Shown piece after piece: positions 4,064 through 62,268 of a stretch of DNA of 64,000 nt. The DNA comes from a virus: positions 32,001 to 96,000 of the IMG/VR virus record IMGVR_UViG_3300032322_002195; one strand, written 5' to 3'. The translations under genes and the position numbers were made by a program. The notes beneath the pieces were generated by a model, which saw nothing but the letters and a program-made list of their open reading frames with translations, did no database searches and was not told the origin of the DNA. Every line of letters starts with the position of its first letter. Positions within the stretch are counted from its first letter, which is position 1.

Positions 4064-5065
4064 ATGCTTAATAGTTCTAATAAAACACAAAGAAATGAAG
4101 GTAGTGTTTATGATGGTATAAATGCTGGTACGAATATAAAATATGGTGTTGTAAGAGTATTAGAAGACGAAACTGGACCAGAACAAAATAAAGGTTTAGG
4201 TAGAATAAAAGTATATATAAAAGGCCCTATAGCAACTGGTGGTGACGCTGATAGGACTGACGCTGAATTACCATGGTGTTTTCCTTTCCTTCCAAAACAT
4301 TTACAAGTTCAACCTAAAGTAGGTGAAGCTGTTATGATTTTAACTTTTAGCAACCAACAACAACACGCAGATAGATTGTATATTGGTCCAATAGTTTCAC
4401 AATTACCTCTTTTAGATAAAGACCCTTATTTATATTCAGCTTTAAATGGTTTTACATTTGCGCTTTCTTCACCATCAATAAACCCATCACAAATAGCTGA
4501 ATTAAATGGTGTATTTCCAAAACCAGACGATGTTTCAATACAAGGTAGATATAACACAGAAATAACTCAAAAAAGGAATGAAGTAGTTATTAGAGCTGGT
4601 AAATTTGTTGAATCAACCCCAAATAAAAACAATCCTTACTCTTTCAAATATAACCCAACAACCCAAGCTTACATTCAATTAAAAAATGATGTTGTAACAA
4701 ACCCAGCAACTAATCAACAAGCTGCTCTTAGAGGTACGGTAGCCAATATAGTTGCAAATAAGATTAATCTTATTACACATAGAGATGGAAGCCCTAGATT
4801 TAATATAACAGACCCAGACATTCTTATAACTGACGATGAATTAACCAAAATACTATCAGAAGCCCATCAAGTTCCTTTTGGGGATGTTTTATTACAATAT
4901 TTAAGACTACTTAAAGACGCATTTTTATCACATGTTCATAATGGCAGCGGAAACCCAGCAACAGATTTAACGATATCAGGAAACAAACAAGCTGTTGCTT
5001 TATTTAAAACAAAAGCAGATGATTTAGAAAAGTCAATGTTATCGAAAAATGTGCGTATTAATTAA
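4064..5065 (+). CDS. baseplate hub/spike protein (gp5/VgrG OB-fold-like)
   Basis: GLGRIKV...LPWCFPFLP..LQVQPKVGEAV OB-fold signature; C-terminal HVH metal-binding spike motif. Confidence 0.65.
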   Translation: MLNSSNKTQRNEGSVYDGINAGTNIKYGVVRVLEDETGPEQNKGLGRIKVYIKGPIATGGDADRTDAELPWCFPFLPKHLQVQPKVGEAVMILTFSNQQQHADRLYIGPIVSQLPLLDKDPYLYSALNGFTFALSSPSINPSQIAELNGVFPKPDDVSIQGRYNTEITQKRNEVVIRAGKFVESTPNKNNPYSFKYNPTTQAYIQLKNDVVTNPATNQQAALRGTVANIVANKINLITHRDGSPRFNITDPDILITDDELTKILSEAHQVPFGDVLLQYLRLLKDAFLSHVHNGSGNPATDLTISGNKQAVALFKTKADDLEKSMLSKNVRIN

Positions 5066-50220: not shown

Positions 50221-50526
50221 ACGTTTGTTTGTTTAATTGTTTAACGATGATGCAAATAAAGGAATTATTTTTGACATTACCAAATTTAAATGAATTTATT
50301 TTAAGTTAGTTTATCAACATTTTTTTGTTGATAACTTAATTTGGTAGTATGGAATTTTTTTTGTACTTTTGCAAACTTTTTTCGGATATGTATAAAAAAA
50401 ATATAAGGTAGGTCGGAGTATACCTTCCGTTACCTTGTGAGCAACGTCCCGTCTGATTGACACTGCAAATATAAAAAAAAGGTTTGAGATTACCAAACCT
50501 TTTTGAAAATAAATTTGTTAAATTTT

Positions 50527-50766
50527 TTACCACCTATCATACCACTTTGAAGCATAGTAGTTTCTTGCTTTTTTATGGCTTTGTTTTTTAGGTTTCACAT
50601 AGTAGGGTGTTTTGCTTGCTTTCTGTCCCCAAACTACTTCCGTTCCTCTTGATATGGGTGTTGGCGCACCTTTACCCATAGAAACTGAATAGCAAGGTGA
50701 TGTAGTGCTGCAAGAGCTAATAAAGAGGGTAAGAGCTGCGAGGGTTGATAATACGATTGTTTTCAT
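50527..50766 (-). CDS. small putative lipoprotein
   Basis: MKTIVLSTLAALTLFISS-C. Confidence 0.6.
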   Translation of the reverse strand: MKTIVLSTLAALTLFISSCSTTSPCYSVSMGKGAPTPISRGTEVVWGQKASKTPYYVKPKKQSHKKARNYYASKWYDRW

Positions 50767-50859
50767 GTTTGTTTGTTTTAGTGATGCAAAGATAGACAAG
50801 TTTTTGATATTTCCAAATTTTAAATGAATTTATTTTATAAAAAAATTTTTGGTAGAAAA

Positions 50860-50891
50860 TTTGGTAGATTGAAAAAAAGTTTGTATATTTG
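50860..50891 (+). promoter_or_regulatory. Bacteroidota-type promoter driving the ncRNA cluster
   Basis: tttg-gtagattgaaaaaaagtttg-tatatttg. Confidence 0.8.
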
Positions 50892-50966
50892 CAGTGTTGT
50901 AAATGGTTCACAAGGTGTCTGAAAGTGGACTAACCAAATACGCAGGTCAATCGACATTTACAACAT

Positions 50967-51066
50967 AGTCAGAGAAGCATGATTAGGTTATATGCCCTAC
51001 TTGGGTTGAAGTAGTTACTTCGTAATTCCGCATGGGTGATAGCAGGTTCGAATCCTGTCCTGACTA
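50967..51066 (+). ncRNA. tRNA-like RNA with atypical interior
   Basis: Acceptor AGTCAGA/CCTGACT and T arm GCAGG-TTCGAAT-CCTGT; no recognisable D or anticodon arm. Confidence 0.6.
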
Positions 51067-51152
51067 CTAATTAGACCAACCTCCTTCCCATTAGAACAGG
51101 ACGCTCAGGATTTAAGTAGGGTTTGATTCCCCTTAATTAATTGGTCAATTTT

Positions 51153-51231
51153 GGTTAAATGGCGTAGCTGGATAGCGCAAGGATAGTGGCAGACCCCACC
51201 CTTTACACAGGTTCGAATCCTGTTTTAACCA
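51153..51231 (+). ncRNA. tRNA-like RNA with aberrant anticodon arm
   Basis: Acceptor GGTTAAA/TTTAACC, D arm GCG..GG..CGC, T arm ACAGG-TTCGAAT-CCTGT; bulged anticodon stem with a 6-nt loop. Confidence 0.65.
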
Positions 51232-51330
51232 CGAATGCAGTTCAAATCTGCTCGTTGACTGAGGTTATGGTAAGTAGACTATTGAGGTACGCACTCAACT
51301 TAGAAATAAGGTAGAATGAAGTGAACAGTC

Positions 51331-51363
51331 AAAAAAAAGGGGTTGCTAATGCACCCCTTTTTT
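51331..51363. terminator. bidirectional intrinsic terminator
   Basis: aaaaaaagggg-ttgctaatgca-ccccttttt. Confidence 0.8.
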
Positions 51364-51386
51364 ATTTATATGTACGCAAATGTGTA

Positions 51387-51542
51387 CTATTTTTTTAGGT
51401 TAATGAATCTATTTTTTGTTTCACCTTTTAATCGGTAATTAAATTTGAATCCAGAGCCATCTTCAAATTCAATCATTTGAATTGGGAGTTGGAAAGAGAA
51501 GTGGTTTTTTTCTATTTCTGATATTGCTTGTTGAAGTTTCAT
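51387..51542 (-). CDS. small hypothetical protein (51 aa, not in ORF track)
   Basis: MKLQQAISEIEKNH...EFEDGSGFKFNY. Confidence 0.55.
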   Translation of the reverse strand: MKLQQAISEIEKNHFSFQLPIQMIEFEDGSGFKFNYRLKGETKNRFINLKK

Positions 51543-61040: not shown

Positions 61041-61343
61041 ATGGAACAAAAATACTTCTTCGGTTGGGATAATATCAAATGGTTTATCTCAGAAATTTGC
61101 AAAATCTATTCATCACAACCTTCTTTCTTTTCTAAGAAAAGAATTGAATCTGGAATCGCTTTTATTATTGCTCAATGGGGAATGATTTATTTCCTAGTTA
61201 CTCACTCATCAGCTTTAACGATGGGTGAATTTTTATTATGGGCGACCACTGAATTTGCCGTATCAGGTTATATAATCAATCAAATTCAGAAAGAAAAAAA
61301 AGAAATCGTTTCGGAAGAAAATCCACAACAACTTAATGATTAA
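61041..61343 (+). CDS. small membrane protein (holin-like)
   Basis: SKKR followed by two hydrophobic helices. Confidence 0.55.
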   Translation: MEQKYFFGWDNIKWFISEICKIYSSQPSFFSKKRIESGIAFIIAQWGMIYFLVTHSSALTMGEFLLWATTEFAVSGYIINQIQKEKKEIVSEENPQQLND

Positions 61344-61384
61344 CGGAGCTTAGCTGAATCCATGTACACAAACGTGTACACCAT

Positions 61385-61843
61385 ATAAAATAGCCAAACC
61401 CCTGTCCACATTTCGGGCTCAGGGGTTGACTTTTTCTAATAATTGGCCGCATATAAGCTGCCTTCGGTTGTTAATGCGGGCATAGCCGCCCGCTGGCTGA
61501 ATTAAGAGGTGAGAGCCCACCCCAATCAATCGGCTCAAACTGATTGAGATGTCACCACTTTTTGGCTCAATGGGATGCCTTCCCACCGACTTACGTCCCT
61601 TGGCAGGGAACCTTTTTCGGATGTTTGGGTACACAGTGCCAATCTGCCTTTCGGGAGGGGCTGATGTCCCATTTTTAATATAAGGTTTGACCGACCTTAG
61701 TTAATCCTTTTCAGGGGATACGGATGGTGCATTAGCATACATATCACTATGATGTTTTTTGTAATCCTAGGACAGCTACCACAGTCTACATCCTAGGTAC
61801 TCAACGCTTTTATAACTAATGTGTAAGTTAAGCGTAAACTTAC
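61385..61843 (-). ncRNA. large structured non-coding RNA of unknown class
   Basis: Own promoter (-7 box 61848-61855), GC-rich, many hairpins, no credible ORF; ends approximate. Confidence 0.65.
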
Positions 61844-61898
61844 AAGACAAAGGTAAGAAATAAATTTGATATTACCAAATTTATTTTCAATTTTTTTG

Positions 61899-62022
61899 CG
61901 GTCATAATTGGACTCGAACCAATAAGATGATGCTTATATGTCGTTATTCCTAGCAAATTGGTATTTATCATTTCCAAGTTGCCGCTATCTGATTAATCTC
62001 TAGCTTTACGACTAATATGACC
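61899..62022 (-). ncRNA. tRNA-like RNA with a large structured insert
   Basis: Acceptor GGTCATA/TATGACC and T arm ATTGG-TTCGAGT-CCAAT; own promoter at 62049. Confidence 0.65.
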
Positions 62023-62268
62023 AAGTATTAATTTCAATGAACGTGAGACAAAGGTAAGAAATAATTTTGATATTACCAAATTTATTTTACCTTTTCAATG
62101 GCTGAAGATATTATCGTTCCTAATATAATTAATAATGATTGGGTACCGATAATTTTTAAATAAATTTCGTTTTTATCACTCCAAAGAGCAAGTACGGCTA
62201 TTGGAAACATACTAAGTAATATCAACCCAAGAATAGCGTTAATAGTTTTTTTCATTTTTTTGTTTTTG

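What the first reader, a model, noticed from the sequence alone, without database searches (positions are those of the whole stretch)
61385..61843. Large (about 450-500 nt) structured ncRNA with its own promoter next to tRNA genes
Seen: a markedly GC-rich ORF-poor block directly downstream of a promoter repeat. Helices include cctagga/tcctagg (61766-61797), aaggt/acctt (61682-61698), tccct/aggga (61596-61609), ggga/tccc (61571-61583), tcaatc/gattga (61526-61547), gggc/gccc (61478-61491) and aacccctg/caggggtt (61397-61427). It lacks the RNase P, tmRNA and group I/II intron signatures I could recognise. Known: large phage ncRNAs such as GOLLD and ROOL lie near tRNA genes. Inference: a member of such a class, or a new large RNA.
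Basis: partly seen in the sequence, partly recalled or inferred. Interest (0 to 1): 0.8.

Follow-up and report, generated by a model that had tools for sequence, protein, structure and literature searches.

The report
New modular folded RNA in lake phage
The flagged stretch is a real stand-alone gene for a folded, non-coding RNA of a giant freshwater phage. Only a 125-base core is shared with its few relatives, it matches no catalogued RNA family, and its job is unknown.

Summary
Window 61385-61847 is a GC-rich island (45-54% GC against 31%). It lies on the MINUS strand between a Bacteroidota-type promoter (61879-61848) and a strong hairpin with a U-rich tail (61427-61385).

Rfam gives no match, even at E<=10, so it is not GOLLD, ROOL, RNase P RNA, tmRNA or an intron.

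I found four other distinct versions in freshwater viral and metagenome contigs. Only a 123-127-nt module (61623-61501) is shared: three hairpins plus a long bulged arm. A covariance model built without the window finds it at E=2.7e-13. Of the paired cells, 97% pair and 11 of 40 pairs show double changes. The 5' domain (95-290 nt) and the 3' extension are swapped between relatives.

The ORF across the core is not under protein-type selection: 10 of 11 variable codons change the residue.

The relatives start with a perfect BoxA anti-termination leader. The same 18-mer abuts tRNA and tmRNA genes in Bacteroidota.

Verdict: a new, narrowly distributed, modular phage stable RNA, probably a protein-binding handle; function unproven.

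This scan noted similar BoxA-led modular RNAs in other giant lake phages, but found no look-alike of this stretch outside this genome.

The parts
61848..61879 (-). Bacteroidota-type promoter: -33 TTTG (61879-61876), 20-nt spacer, -7 TACCTTTG (61855-61848). It belongs to the 'TTTGGTAAT.TCAAA...TACCTTTG' subtype, which is shared with the next promoter upstream and with the promoters of the homologues.
   Evidence: Searches show the motif is far over-represented and almost all on the minus strand. One search shows the same promoter in front of the homologues. The start site about 5-8 nt downstream is inferred.
61624..61847 (-). Window-specific 5' domain of about 225 nt, a string of hairpins. These include a 5'-terminal hairpin (about 61843-61821), cctagga/tcctagg (61797-61766), aaggt/acctt (61698-61682), and a branched hairpin with a GAAA loop (about 61673-61628). 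It is unrelated in sequence to the 5' domains of L108, L002, L003 and L112, and it has no BoxA.
   Evidence: Near-identical copies were seen only as Logan contigs of freshwater and aquaculture runs (records 6, 14, 15). A 25-mer from this domain is absent from IMG/VR.
61501..61623 (-). Conserved module that defines the family (123 nt here, 123-127 nt in all five versions).
- H1: weak hairpin.
- H2: 61609-61596, 5 bp with a GCCA loop.
- Linker CGUAAG: 61595-61590.
- H3: 61589-61567, 9 bp with an AGGCA loop.
- Linker GCCAAA: 61566-61561.
- H4: 61560-61552 paired with 61512-61504.
- H5: enclosed by H4, 14 bp, 61551-61538 paired with 61531-61518, with loop UGAGCC at 61537-61532.
- 5-nt bulge GGCUC: 61517-61513.
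   Evidence: Model R1, built only from L002, L003 and L112, hits this stretch full-length at 74.3 bits, E=2.7e-13. Pair counts: 97.4% of cells paired and 11 of 40 pairs with changes on both sides, against 34-47% paired in slid controls.
61431..61500 (-). 3' extension shared only with L108: hairpin GCGGGC/GCCCGC (61493-61476) and a second small hairpin region. The L002, L003 and L112 versions lack it.
   Evidence: The one C-to-U difference in L108 turns a C-G pair into U-G. The same change shows in runs X15 and X6 (place 61488).
61385..61427 (-). End of the gene: an 8-bp GC-rich hairpin (61427-61420 with 61404-61397) followed by UUUGGCUAUUUUAU. It faces the 3' end of the convergent gene 61041-61343, so it probably terminates both.
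   Evidence: All five versions end in a hairpin of different sequence at this place. It was not called by the consensus terminator scan, so its terminator function is inferred.
61363..61381 (.). Two TGTACA palindromes 7 nt apart (TGTACAC-AAAC-GTGTACA on the plus strand). They lie between the RNA's end hairpin and the stop codon of the convergent gene and are kept in all five versions while the flanks vary. Role unknown: protein-binding site or small hairpin.
61890..62080 (-). Upstream neighbour in the same orientation.
- Second copy of the promoter: 62080-62049.
- BoxA-like GUUCAUUGAAAU: 62042-62031.
- tRNA-like RNA: acceptor stem and T arm, odd centre, about 62022-61899.
No terminator was called between it and the large RNA, so read-through into the large RNA is possible.
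   Evidence: One search gives a weak tRNA T-arm/acceptor match. One search shows a Maribacter rrn leader carrying AAGTTCATTGAAATATTG.

Best explanation
Window 61847-61385 (minus strand) is a stand-alone gene for a stable, non-coding, folded RNA of a giant (about 300 kb class) freshwater phage that uses Bacteroidota-type promoters.

The RNA is modular. A conserved 125-nt handle is fixed in length and shape. It consists of hairpins H2 and H3, joined by the invariant CGUAAG and followed by GCCAAA, and then a 22-24-bp arm (H4 and H5) with a conserved GCUC bulge and a UGAGC loop. The 5' domain and 3' extension around it are interchangeable.

The RNA is made early, from a strong promoter in the phage's array of single-gene early units. 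In its relatives it is made behind a BoxA anti-termination leader of the kind Bacteroidota place in front of tRNA, tmRNA and rRNA. That is, it is expressed like a host stable RNA.

Most likely mechanism (inferred, not shown): the invariant handle is the docking site for one conserved RNA-binding protein of the host or the phage, which the RNA titrates or scaffolds. The variable domains mainly give stability.

Shown: gene boundaries by sequence signals, non-coding nature, conserved fold with compensatory changes, strand, modularity, BoxA in relatives, absence from Rfam and from the host-clade genomes sampled.

Inferred: transcription, stability, protein binding, timing.
For: Gene signals: promoter 61879-61848 and end hairpin. 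All five versions have the same promoter type and end in a hairpin.

Strand: the module folds at -44.1 kcal/mol (z -2.73) on the minus strand against -33.8 (z -1.09) on the plus strand. For L003 the values are z -5.92 against -2.74. H3 and H5 hold G-U pairs.

Conserved fold: the module is 123-127 nt in all five versions. A model built without the window or L108 finds both full-length, at E 2.7e-13 and 2.3e-16. 97.4% of cells pair, 11 pairs have double changes, and the covariation score is 0.37 against 0.18 in shuffles (0 of 500 as high). Slid controls pair at 34-47%. Separate MFE folds of the window and L003 modules give the same layout.

Not coding: variable columns fall 7/4/4 by codon position and 10 of 11 variable codons change the residue. 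L002 and L003 have no start codon before the core, the residues after the core are unrelated, and other frames are equally open. Pfam finds no family.

Modularity: and a contig joint.

BoxA: the leader in L108, L002, L003 and L112 contains GTTCTTTAAAA, which matches the consensus GYTCTTTAANA (PMC5725501). The same 18-mer overlaps by 2 nt the called 5' end of tRNA-Tyr, tRNA-Lys, tRNA-Asp and a tmRNA in Bacteroidota genomes.

No cis target: the next gene downstream is convergent.

Weak expression hint: one 151-nt contig of a lake metatranscriptome lies on 61418-61549, and nothing lies on the flanking protein genes.
Against: - Only five distinct sequences are known, in effect two deep lineages (window and L108 against L002, L003 and L112). 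Independent compensatory events are therefore few.
- The alignment used for the pair counts was fitted to the model (caveats).
- H3 and the linkers never vary, so they give no evidence on pairing.
- No strand-specific RNA data exist. The metatranscriptome contig could be contaminating DNA.
- No partner protein is identified. The neighbouring genes are either widespread without the RNA or differ between versions.
- The window's own copy lacks BoxA.
- A complete 318-kb relative lacks the RNA, so it is dispensable for the phage clade.
- The end hairpin is not a canonical terminator.
Confidence: 0.6

Rival explanations
1. It is one large ornate RNA of the GOLLD/ROOL kind. The whole 450 nt would fold as a unit and self-assemble into an RNA-only multimer, with the module providing the inter-subunit contacts.
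For: - It is long, GC-rich and multi-hairpin, lies in a phage near tRNA genes, and has GAAA-type loops.
- The H5 loop (UGAGCC here, UGAGC in L003) is complementary to the bulge at the base of the same arm (GGCUC here, GCUCA in L003) in both lineages. By my own geometric reasoning they cannot pair within one molecule, because the 14-15-bp stem lies between them with no linker. Pairing in trans is possible.
- GOLLD, ROOL and OLE are reported to form multimers (bioRxiv 10.1101/2024.12.08.627333, listed).
Against: - No Rfam match to GOLLD, ROOL, OLE, raiA or manA at E<=10.
- The 5' two-thirds of the RNA are replaced wholesale between relatives and vary from 95 to 290 nt. That is hard to reconcile with one fixed global architecture.
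- The loop-bulge match rests on four shared base pairs plus one lineage-specific pair. Nothing here tests oligomerisation.
Confidence: 0.1
2. It is a precursor, not a final product. Several independent small RNAs (the 5' hairpin modules, the 125-nt handle, the 3' hairpins) are strung on one transcript. Host RNases cut them apart, as with the stable RNAs and tRNAs of phage T4 tRNA clusters.
For: - Modules are swapped independently between relatives.
- The module's helices all lie side by side with no enclosing helix in the folds.
- Tandem promoter-RNA units sit directly upstream in the window, L108 and L112.
- In host genomes the BoxA-type leader ends exactly at mature tRNA and tmRNA 5' ends. 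This suggests the relatives are trimmed at the GG after the leader.
- Earlier notes of this scan describe such module strings in other giant lake phages (unverified leads).
Against: - No processing signal (tRNA-like acceptor, RNase III-type long stem) was identified at the module borders.
- L108's fold pairs the 5' end with the segment just before the module and pairs UCGGU with ACCGA across the module. That would tie the parts together.
- No end-mapping data exist.
Confidence: 0.2
3. It encodes a small protein. The frame across the core is open for 63-93 codons in all five versions (71 aa from GTG at 61634 in the window).
For: The frame is open in all five versions, and L108 has an ATG 5' of the core.
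Against: - 10 of 11 variable codons change the amino acid, with no third-position bias (7/4/4).
- The changes are instead compensatory in RNA hairpins.
- L002 and L003 have no ATG, GTG or TTG before the core, and the sequence after the core is unrelated between lineages.
- Stop-free runs of similar length occur in other frames and on the other strand.
- No Pfam family matches.
Confidence: 0.03
4. It is a mimic used against host defence or RNA processing. H2 plus CGUAAGUC resembles a type I CRISPR repeat (GUUC, 5-bp stem, GCCA loop, 8-nt tail), which would make it an RNA anti-CRISPR. Alternatively, H3 plus GCCA resembles a tRNA acceptor minihelix with a G-U at the third pair, which would make it a decoy.
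For: - The resemblance is by eye only, from my own recall of I-E and I-F repeats and of tRNA minihelices.
- The phage also carries tRNA-like RNAs with aberrant centres (note e1-6036421).
- The core is invariant at the sequence level, as expected for a mimic of a fixed partner.
Against: - No repeat array or second copy exists in the 108.8-kb record.
- The exact core is absent from 185,579 species' genomes.
- The model finds nothing in 302 further genomes of two Bacteroidota families, nor in the 5 genomes used as handles.
- The H2 loop varies (GCCA, GGCG, GACA).
- H3 is 9 bp with a 5-nt loop, not a 12-bp acceptor/T stack.
Confidence: 0.05
5. It is a non-functional remnant: a piece of foreign GC-richer DNA or a decaying gene that happens to fold.
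For: Narrow distribution. It is absent from 77 related loci and from 5 whole related records.
Against: - A dedicated consensus promoter and an end hairpin are kept in all versions.
- The module length and fold are kept while H5 has changed at 10 of 15 pairs without losing pairing.
- The core of about 55 nt is nearly invariant while the flanks have diverged beyond alignment.
- It is present in runs of many studies.
Confidence: 0.02

Closest known systems
Small stable RNAs of phage tRNA clusters (T4 species 1 and 2 RNAs, rnaC and rnaD; T5 stable RNAs). Cited from my own knowledge; the same comparison was made in this scan's notes.
   Same: They are phage-encoded, non-coding, folded and of unknown function. 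They sit among or next to tRNA genes and are expressed like stable RNAs.
   Different: No sequence or structure relation was tested or is expected. This RNA has its own promoter and end hairpin. It is larger (317-463 nt) and is built round a 125-nt handle found only in a few freshwater phages that use Bacteroidota-type promoters.
GOLLD and ROOL large ornate RNAs (Rfam families)
   Same: They are large, GC-rich, multi-hairpin RNAs carried by phages near tRNA genes. Their function is unknown.
   Different: No covariance-model match at E<=10. This RNA is smaller. Only 125 nt are conserved and the rest is swapped between relatives.
BoxA-led stable-RNA transcription units (rrn leader and the Nus-factor anti-termination complex; BoxA consensus GYTCTTTAANA, PMC5725501)
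   Same: The relatives L108, L002, L003 and L112 carry a perfect BoxA about 20 nt after the promoter. The window's upstream tRNA-like RNA carries the GUUCAUUGAAAU variant seen in a Maribacter rrn leader.
   Different: BoxA is a leader signal and does not identify the RNA. The window's own large RNA lacks it. Nus-factor dependence was not tested.
Y RNAs / YrlA with Ro60 (Rsr)
   Same: They are modular non-coding RNAs with a conserved protein-binding handle (a bulged helix) and variable, partly tRNA-like payloads. They have been reported next to tRNA-like RNAs in phages (scan notes).
   Different: No Rfam match. No TROVE-domain gene was found in the 108.8-kb record, which is only about 32% of the genome. 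The handle here is internal and is not formed by the paired 5' and 3' ends.

Membership tests
GOLLD RNA / ROOL RNA (Rfam) | Match to the family covariance model (sequence plus consensus structure). | tested here: not met
   cmscan of the window at gathering thresholds and of 61200-62100 at E<=10 gave no match. The homologues L108, L002 and L112 gave none either.
Bacterial RNase P RNA | Conserved P4 core (CR-I/CR-V) as scored by the Rfam models. | tested here: not met
   No match at E<=10.
tmRNA | tRNA-like acceptor/T-arm ends plus a tag reading frame. | tested here: not met
   ARAGORN finds no tmRNA in the window or the whole record. There is no Rfam match.
Group I / group II introns | Catalytic core as scored by the Rfam models; insertion within a host gene. 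| tested here: not met
   No match at E<=10. The element has its own promoter and end hairpin and interrupts no gene.
Y RNA / YrlA-Ro60 system | Rfam Y-RNA model match, and a Ro60 (TROVE) gene in the genome. | tested here: not met
   No Rfam match. PF05731 was not found in the record, although the control genomes gave matches. The record is only about 32% complete, so absence of the protein is not proven.
manA / wcaG phage RNA motifs | Rfam model match. | tested here: not met
   No match in the RNA. The single weak manA-II hit (28 bits against a gathering score of 100, E 0.26) lies elsewhere in L108 and on the other strand.
RNA anti-CRISPR (solitary CRISPR-repeat mimic) | Near-identity to the CRISPR repeat of a host system. 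| tested here: inconclusive
   The exact core is absent from genome contigs. The model finds nothing in 302 Bacteroidota genomes. The host and its repeats are unknown, and a stand-alone H2-like or H3-like repeat was not searched for.
BoxA-led stable RNA gene (rrn-type anti-termination leader) | BoxA consensus GYTCTTTAANA in the transcribed leader shortly after the promoter. | tested here: not met
   The window RNA has no match with up to one mismatch in 61385-62100. The feature is met in the relatives L108, L002, L003 and L112. A variant is present in the leader of the window's upstream tRNA-like RNA.
Protein-coding gene (71-aa ORF, 61634-61419) | Excess of synonymous and third-position change, a conserved start, and a conserved protein sequence. 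| tested here: not met
Phage stable RNAs of tRNA clusters (T4 rnaC and rnaD kind) | A stable, abundant transcript processed from a tRNA-region transcript. | not testable with these tools
   Only one metatranscriptome contig is available, with no end mapping. The likeness is by context only.

The most novel reading that the evidence does not exclude
The 125-nt handle is the core of an undescribed phage ribonucleoprotein or a self-associating RNA. Its invariant H2-CGUAAG-H3-GCCAAA platform would capture a host stable-RNA processing or defence factor. The complementary H5 loop and H4/H5 bulge would link molecules head-to-tail. The interchangeable 5' domains would be payloads that different phages plug into the same handle.
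Probability: 0.12. Interest if true: 0.7.

Novelty: new member of a known kind. Interest (0 to 1): 0.42.

Why it matters
Giant phages of lake Bacteroidota carry islands of RNA genes whose roles are unknown. This adds one more uncatalogued family with a clearly selected fold. It also gives a clean example of modular construction: one fixed 125-nt handle with swappable domains.

The work also shows that such phage RNAs are expressed behind the BoxA-type leader that Bacteroidota place directly in front of tRNA and tmRNA genes. This suggests that phages borrow the host's machinery for making long untranslated RNAs.

The family is narrow (five versions), non-essential for the phage clade, and has no assigned function. 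The immediate impact is therefore modest. Its value is as a defined target for pull-down and structural work and as an entry for RNA family databases.

Tried and rejected
- Rfam at gathering and at E<=10 on the window and three homologues gave nothing relevant.
- blastn against 50,697 phage records matched only the promoter repeat.
- nhmmer of the RNA against 80 syntenic loci of related phages hit only L002-L004, over about 70 nt. In the other relatives the site holds protein genes.
- IMG/VR pattern scans returned only the same three contigs or chance hits. The patterns were an exact 21-mer, the core with free positions, a gapped core, a stem-agnostic loop pattern, the H3 tail and a 5'-domain 25-mer.
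- The one metagenome scan added L108 and L112.
- The core pattern found nothing in genome contigs.
- Model R2 found nothing in 77 related loci, in 5 whole related virus records, in 5 Bacteroidota genomes used as handles, or in 302 further genomes of two Bacteroidota families.
- A TROVE/Ro60 gene was not found in the record.
- The perfect BoxA consensus was not found upstream of the 16S genes of the two Flavobacteriaceae I checked. Their leaders carry the variant AAGTTCAT... instead.
- Cis pseudoknots between the GCUC bulge and either the H5 loop or the GAGCC linker were considered. I rejected them on geometry, because a zero-length connecting loop would be required.
- Antisense pairing of H5 with the shared early-gene leaders was rejected, because the H5 sequence is not conserved.
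- Sequencing runs with small word shares were not used as evidence of habitat beyond the four runs laid.
- The literature search for the leader sequence itself was uninformative.

Full report
**1. What is there**

The window is part of a 108.8-kb IMG/VR virus record. CheckV puts it at about 32% complete, and a related complete record is 318 kb. The record is 30.7% GC.

From about 47 kb to the end of the window there is an array of short genes. Each sits behind a near-identical promoter of the Bacteroidota type: -33 TTTG, 19-20 nt, -7 TAnnTTTG. That consensus is from my own knowledge of Bacteroides and Flavobacterium promoters. There are 14 matches to the strict pattern against 1.4 expected, and 13 of them are on the minus strand. 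Dozens more appear with looser spacing.

The flagged block reaches 50-54% GC. It lies directly downstream, in the minus sense, of one such promoter at 61879-61848. It ends at an 8-bp GC-rich hairpin (61427-61397) followed by UUUGGCUAUUUUAU. That hairpin faces the 3' end of the convergent gene 61041-61343.

The transcript is therefore about 455-460 nt, on the minus strand, with no gene downstream that it could regulate in cis.

**2. Known families are excluded**

- Rfam 15 gives only the two tRNA genes at gathering thresholds.
- At E<=10 on 61200-62100 it gives nothing in the RNA.
- Three homologues also give nothing.
- ARAGORN finds no tmRNA.

So this is not GOLLD, ROOL, RNase P RNA, tmRNA, a group I or II intron, 6S, Y RNA, manA or any other catalogued family.

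**3. Relatives**

The convergent 100-aa membrane-protein gene has 80 relatives in IMG/VR. Only three contigs (two distinct sequences, L002 and L003) have a GC-rich island at the same place. In the others the site holds protein genes.

A core pattern added L108 and L112 from JGI metagenomes. That makes five distinct versions. Sampled 31-mers of the stretch occur in runs of 14 studies, mostly freshwater and lake water. Laid contigs show window-type and L108-type copies.

All further pattern scans and two covariance-model searches found no other member. The searches covered IMG/VR, 185,579 species' genomes, five whole related virus records (one of them a complete 318-kb genome), and 302 further genomes from two Bacteroidota families. 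The family is real but narrow, and it is dispensable for the phage clade.

**4. Anatomy: one fixed handle, swappable surroundings**

Alignment of the five versions shows the same promoter subtype, a 5' domain, an almost invariant core, a variable part and an end hairpin.

- The 5' domain is 225 nt in the window, about 95 nt in L108 and about 290 nt in L002, L003 and L112. The window's version is unrelated to the others.
- The stretch from just before the core to the end of the long arm is 123-127 nt in all five versions.
- In the window this module runs as follows:
  - H2: 61609-61596, 5 bp.
  - CGUAAG: 61595-61590.
  - H3: 61589-61567, 9 bp, with an AGGCA loop.
  - GCCAAA: 61566-61561.
  - H4: 61560-61552 paired with 61512-61504.
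  - H5: inside H4, 14 bp, with loop UGAGCC and a 5-nt bulge GGCUC.

In the L002 lineage H5 has a completely different sequence. It is nevertheless 15 bp long, has a loop containing UGAGC and has a bulge AGCUCA.

A covariance model built only from L002, L003 and L112, with this structure, finds L108 (89.5 bits, E 2.3e-16) and the window (74.3 bits, E 2.7e-13). Both hits are full-length.

On the resulting five-row alignment:
- 97.4% of cells are standard pairs.
- 11 of 40 pairs have changes on both sides: one in H2, two in H4 and eight in H5.
- The covariation score is 0.37 against 0.18 in shuffles (0 of 500 as high).
- Sliding the partners by 1-3 columns drops pairing to 34-47%.

Caveats: there are in effect only two deep lineages, and the alignment is fitted to the model. 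H3 and the linkers never vary and so say nothing about pairing.

Independent MFE folds of the window and L003 modules give the same layout. Both fold better on the minus strand. The G-U pairs in H3 and H5 also fix the strand.

**5. Not a protein gene**

That frame is indeed open in all five versions, for 63-93 codons. The evidence against coding is as follows.

- In the alignable 66 nt, the variable columns fall 7/4/4 on codon positions 1/2/3.
- 10 of 11 variable codons change the residue.
- The changes are the compensatory ones of H2 and H4.
- L002 and L003 have no start codon before the core.
- The residues after the core are unrelated between lineages.
- Equally long stop-free runs occur in other frames and on the other strand.
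- Pfam finds nothing.

**6. The BoxA leader**

L108, L002, L003 and L112 begin, about 20 nt after the -7 box, with AAGTTCTTTAAAATATTGG. This contains GTTCTTTAAAA, a perfect match to the BoxA consensus GYTCTTTAANA (Baniulyte et al. 2017, PMC5725501).

The same 21-mer heads other ORF-free RNAs of about 430 nt in four further viral contigs (L114-L117). These have no Rfam match.

The 18-mer occurs in 76 genome contigs, many of them Bacteroidota. In at least eight of those loci it ends exactly at, or overlaps by 2 nt, the called 5' end of a tRNA (Tyr, Lys, Asp) or a tmRNA gene.

The rrn leaders of two Flavobacteriaceae carry related elements rather than the perfect consensus. Maribacter has AAGTTCATTGAAATATTG and Flagellimonas has AAGTTCATATACATATTG.

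The window's large RNA has no BoxA, even allowing one mismatch. The tRNA-like RNA gene directly upstream does: its leader carries GUUCAUUGAAAU (62042-62031), identical over 12 nt to the Maribacter element. That gene has its own copy of the promoter at 62080-62049. No terminator was called between the two genes, so read-through into the large RNA is possible.

I infer that these RNAs are made as long untranslated stable RNAs that use the host's Nus-factor anti-termination. This is inference from sequence only.

**7. Further structure, less certain**

In L108 the segment after the leader (GGUUCGAUAA) pairs with UUAUCAACC just before the module. The L002 lineage can form the equivalent pairing, GGUUUGAG with CUCAACC, with one compensatory pair (by eye). 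This helix would enclose the variable 5' domain.

In L108 the fold also pairs UCGGU with ACCGA across the module. For the window no equivalent long-range helix is clear.

The H5 loop and the bulge are complementary in both lineages. By my own geometric reasoning, cis pairing is ruled out, so the match is either a coincidence of descent or a trans contact.

**8. Expression**

Only contigs could be laid. One 151-nt contig of a lake metatranscriptome lies on 61418-61549. It carries the L108-type variants, and nothing lies on the flanking protein genes. This is a weak hint, not proof.

**9. Interpretation**

Best supported: a stand-alone gene for a modular stable RNA. The conserved 125-nt handle is most plausibly a docking platform for one conserved RNA-binding protein. 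The reasons are the near-invariant sequence of about 55 nt in H2, H3 and the linkers, the fixed geometry of the arm, and the freely exchangeable periphery.

Rivals:
- A precursor that is cut into several small RNAs.
- A single self-assembling ornate RNA.
- A mimic of a CRISPR repeat or a tRNA minihelix.
- A small protein.
- A remnant.

The last two are disfavoured by the data above. The others cannot be separated without experiments.

**10. Relation to earlier notes of this scan**

The same stretch was flagged twice on this genome. Other notes describe BoxA-led GOLLD, manA-like, Ro60-associated and 'modular' RNAs in other giant lake phages. None shares sequence with this family. Those notes gave me two leads:
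- The precursor rival and the T4 comparison.
- The Ro60 test, which was negative in this incomplete record.

**11. Verdict**

This is a genuine, uncatalogued phage RNA family of a known general kind. It has a well-supported core fold, a narrow distribution and an unknown function.

Noticed in passing
window 61890-62080 (minus strand): A second copy of the RNA-type promoter (62080-62049) drives a tRNA-like RNA. It has a 7-bp acceptor stem, a canonical T arm and an aberrant centre. Its leader carries GUUCAUUGAAAU (62042-62031), which is identical to the BoxA-like element of a Maribacter rrn leader. At the same place L108 and L112 instead carry an unrelated hairpin RNA of about 100 nt behind a similar leader.
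   Followed up: partly
L114:468-1100, L115 (minus strand, around 4179-4199), L116:1127-1760, L117:2023-2300: The exact BoxA-type leader AAGTTCTTTAAAATATTGGTT also heads other ORF-free, moderately GC-rich RNAs of about 430 nt that end in a terminator. They occur in unrelated viral contigs of 75-245 kb. There is no Rfam match at gathering thresholds.
   Followed up: partly
L119:3232-3249, L122:6663-6680, L126:2340-2357, L148:6891-6908, L158:118-135, L172:98-115, L174:730-747, L185:5905-5922: In Bacteroidota genomes the 16-nt AGTTCTTTAAAATATT directly abuts the mature 5' end (GG) of tRNA-Tyr, tRNA-Lys, tRNA-Asp and tmRNA genes. So a BoxA-like element appears to serve stable-RNA genes other than rRNA in this phylum.
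   Followed up: partly
window 61363-61381: Two TGTACA palindromes 7 nt apart lie between the RNA's end hairpin and the stop codon of the convergent gene. They are conserved in all five versions while the flanks differ. This may be a protein-binding site.
   Followed up: no
window 61513-61517 and 61532-61537 (also 61562-61568): The H4/H5 bulge GGCUC is complementary both to the H5 loop (GAGCC) and to the invariant linker GAGCC after H3. The L002 lineage keeps the complementarity with shifted register (GCUCA against UGAGC). By my geometric reasoning cis pairing is excluded. The meaning is unknown.
   Followed up: partly
window 51153-51232 and 50340-51450 (plus strand): ARAGORN calls a tRNA of undetermined type with a two-base 'anticodon'. 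It lies in a plus-strand, promoter-driven region with mild GC islands (50601-50750, 50991-51280). This looks like a second RNA operon, already noted by another reader.
   Followed up: no
G000 92.0-107.3 kb (window 47.9-75.3 kb): About 60 near-identical Bacteroidota-type promoters each drive one short gene. The two RNA genes use a distinct subtype: TTTGGTAAT.TCAAA...TACCTTTG instead of ...TATCTTTG.
   Followed up: partly
L108:2748-2906 (plus strand): Weak sub-threshold match to the manA-II motif (28 bits against a gathering score of 100, E 0.26). It lies outside the RNA studied here and on the other strand.
   Followed up: no
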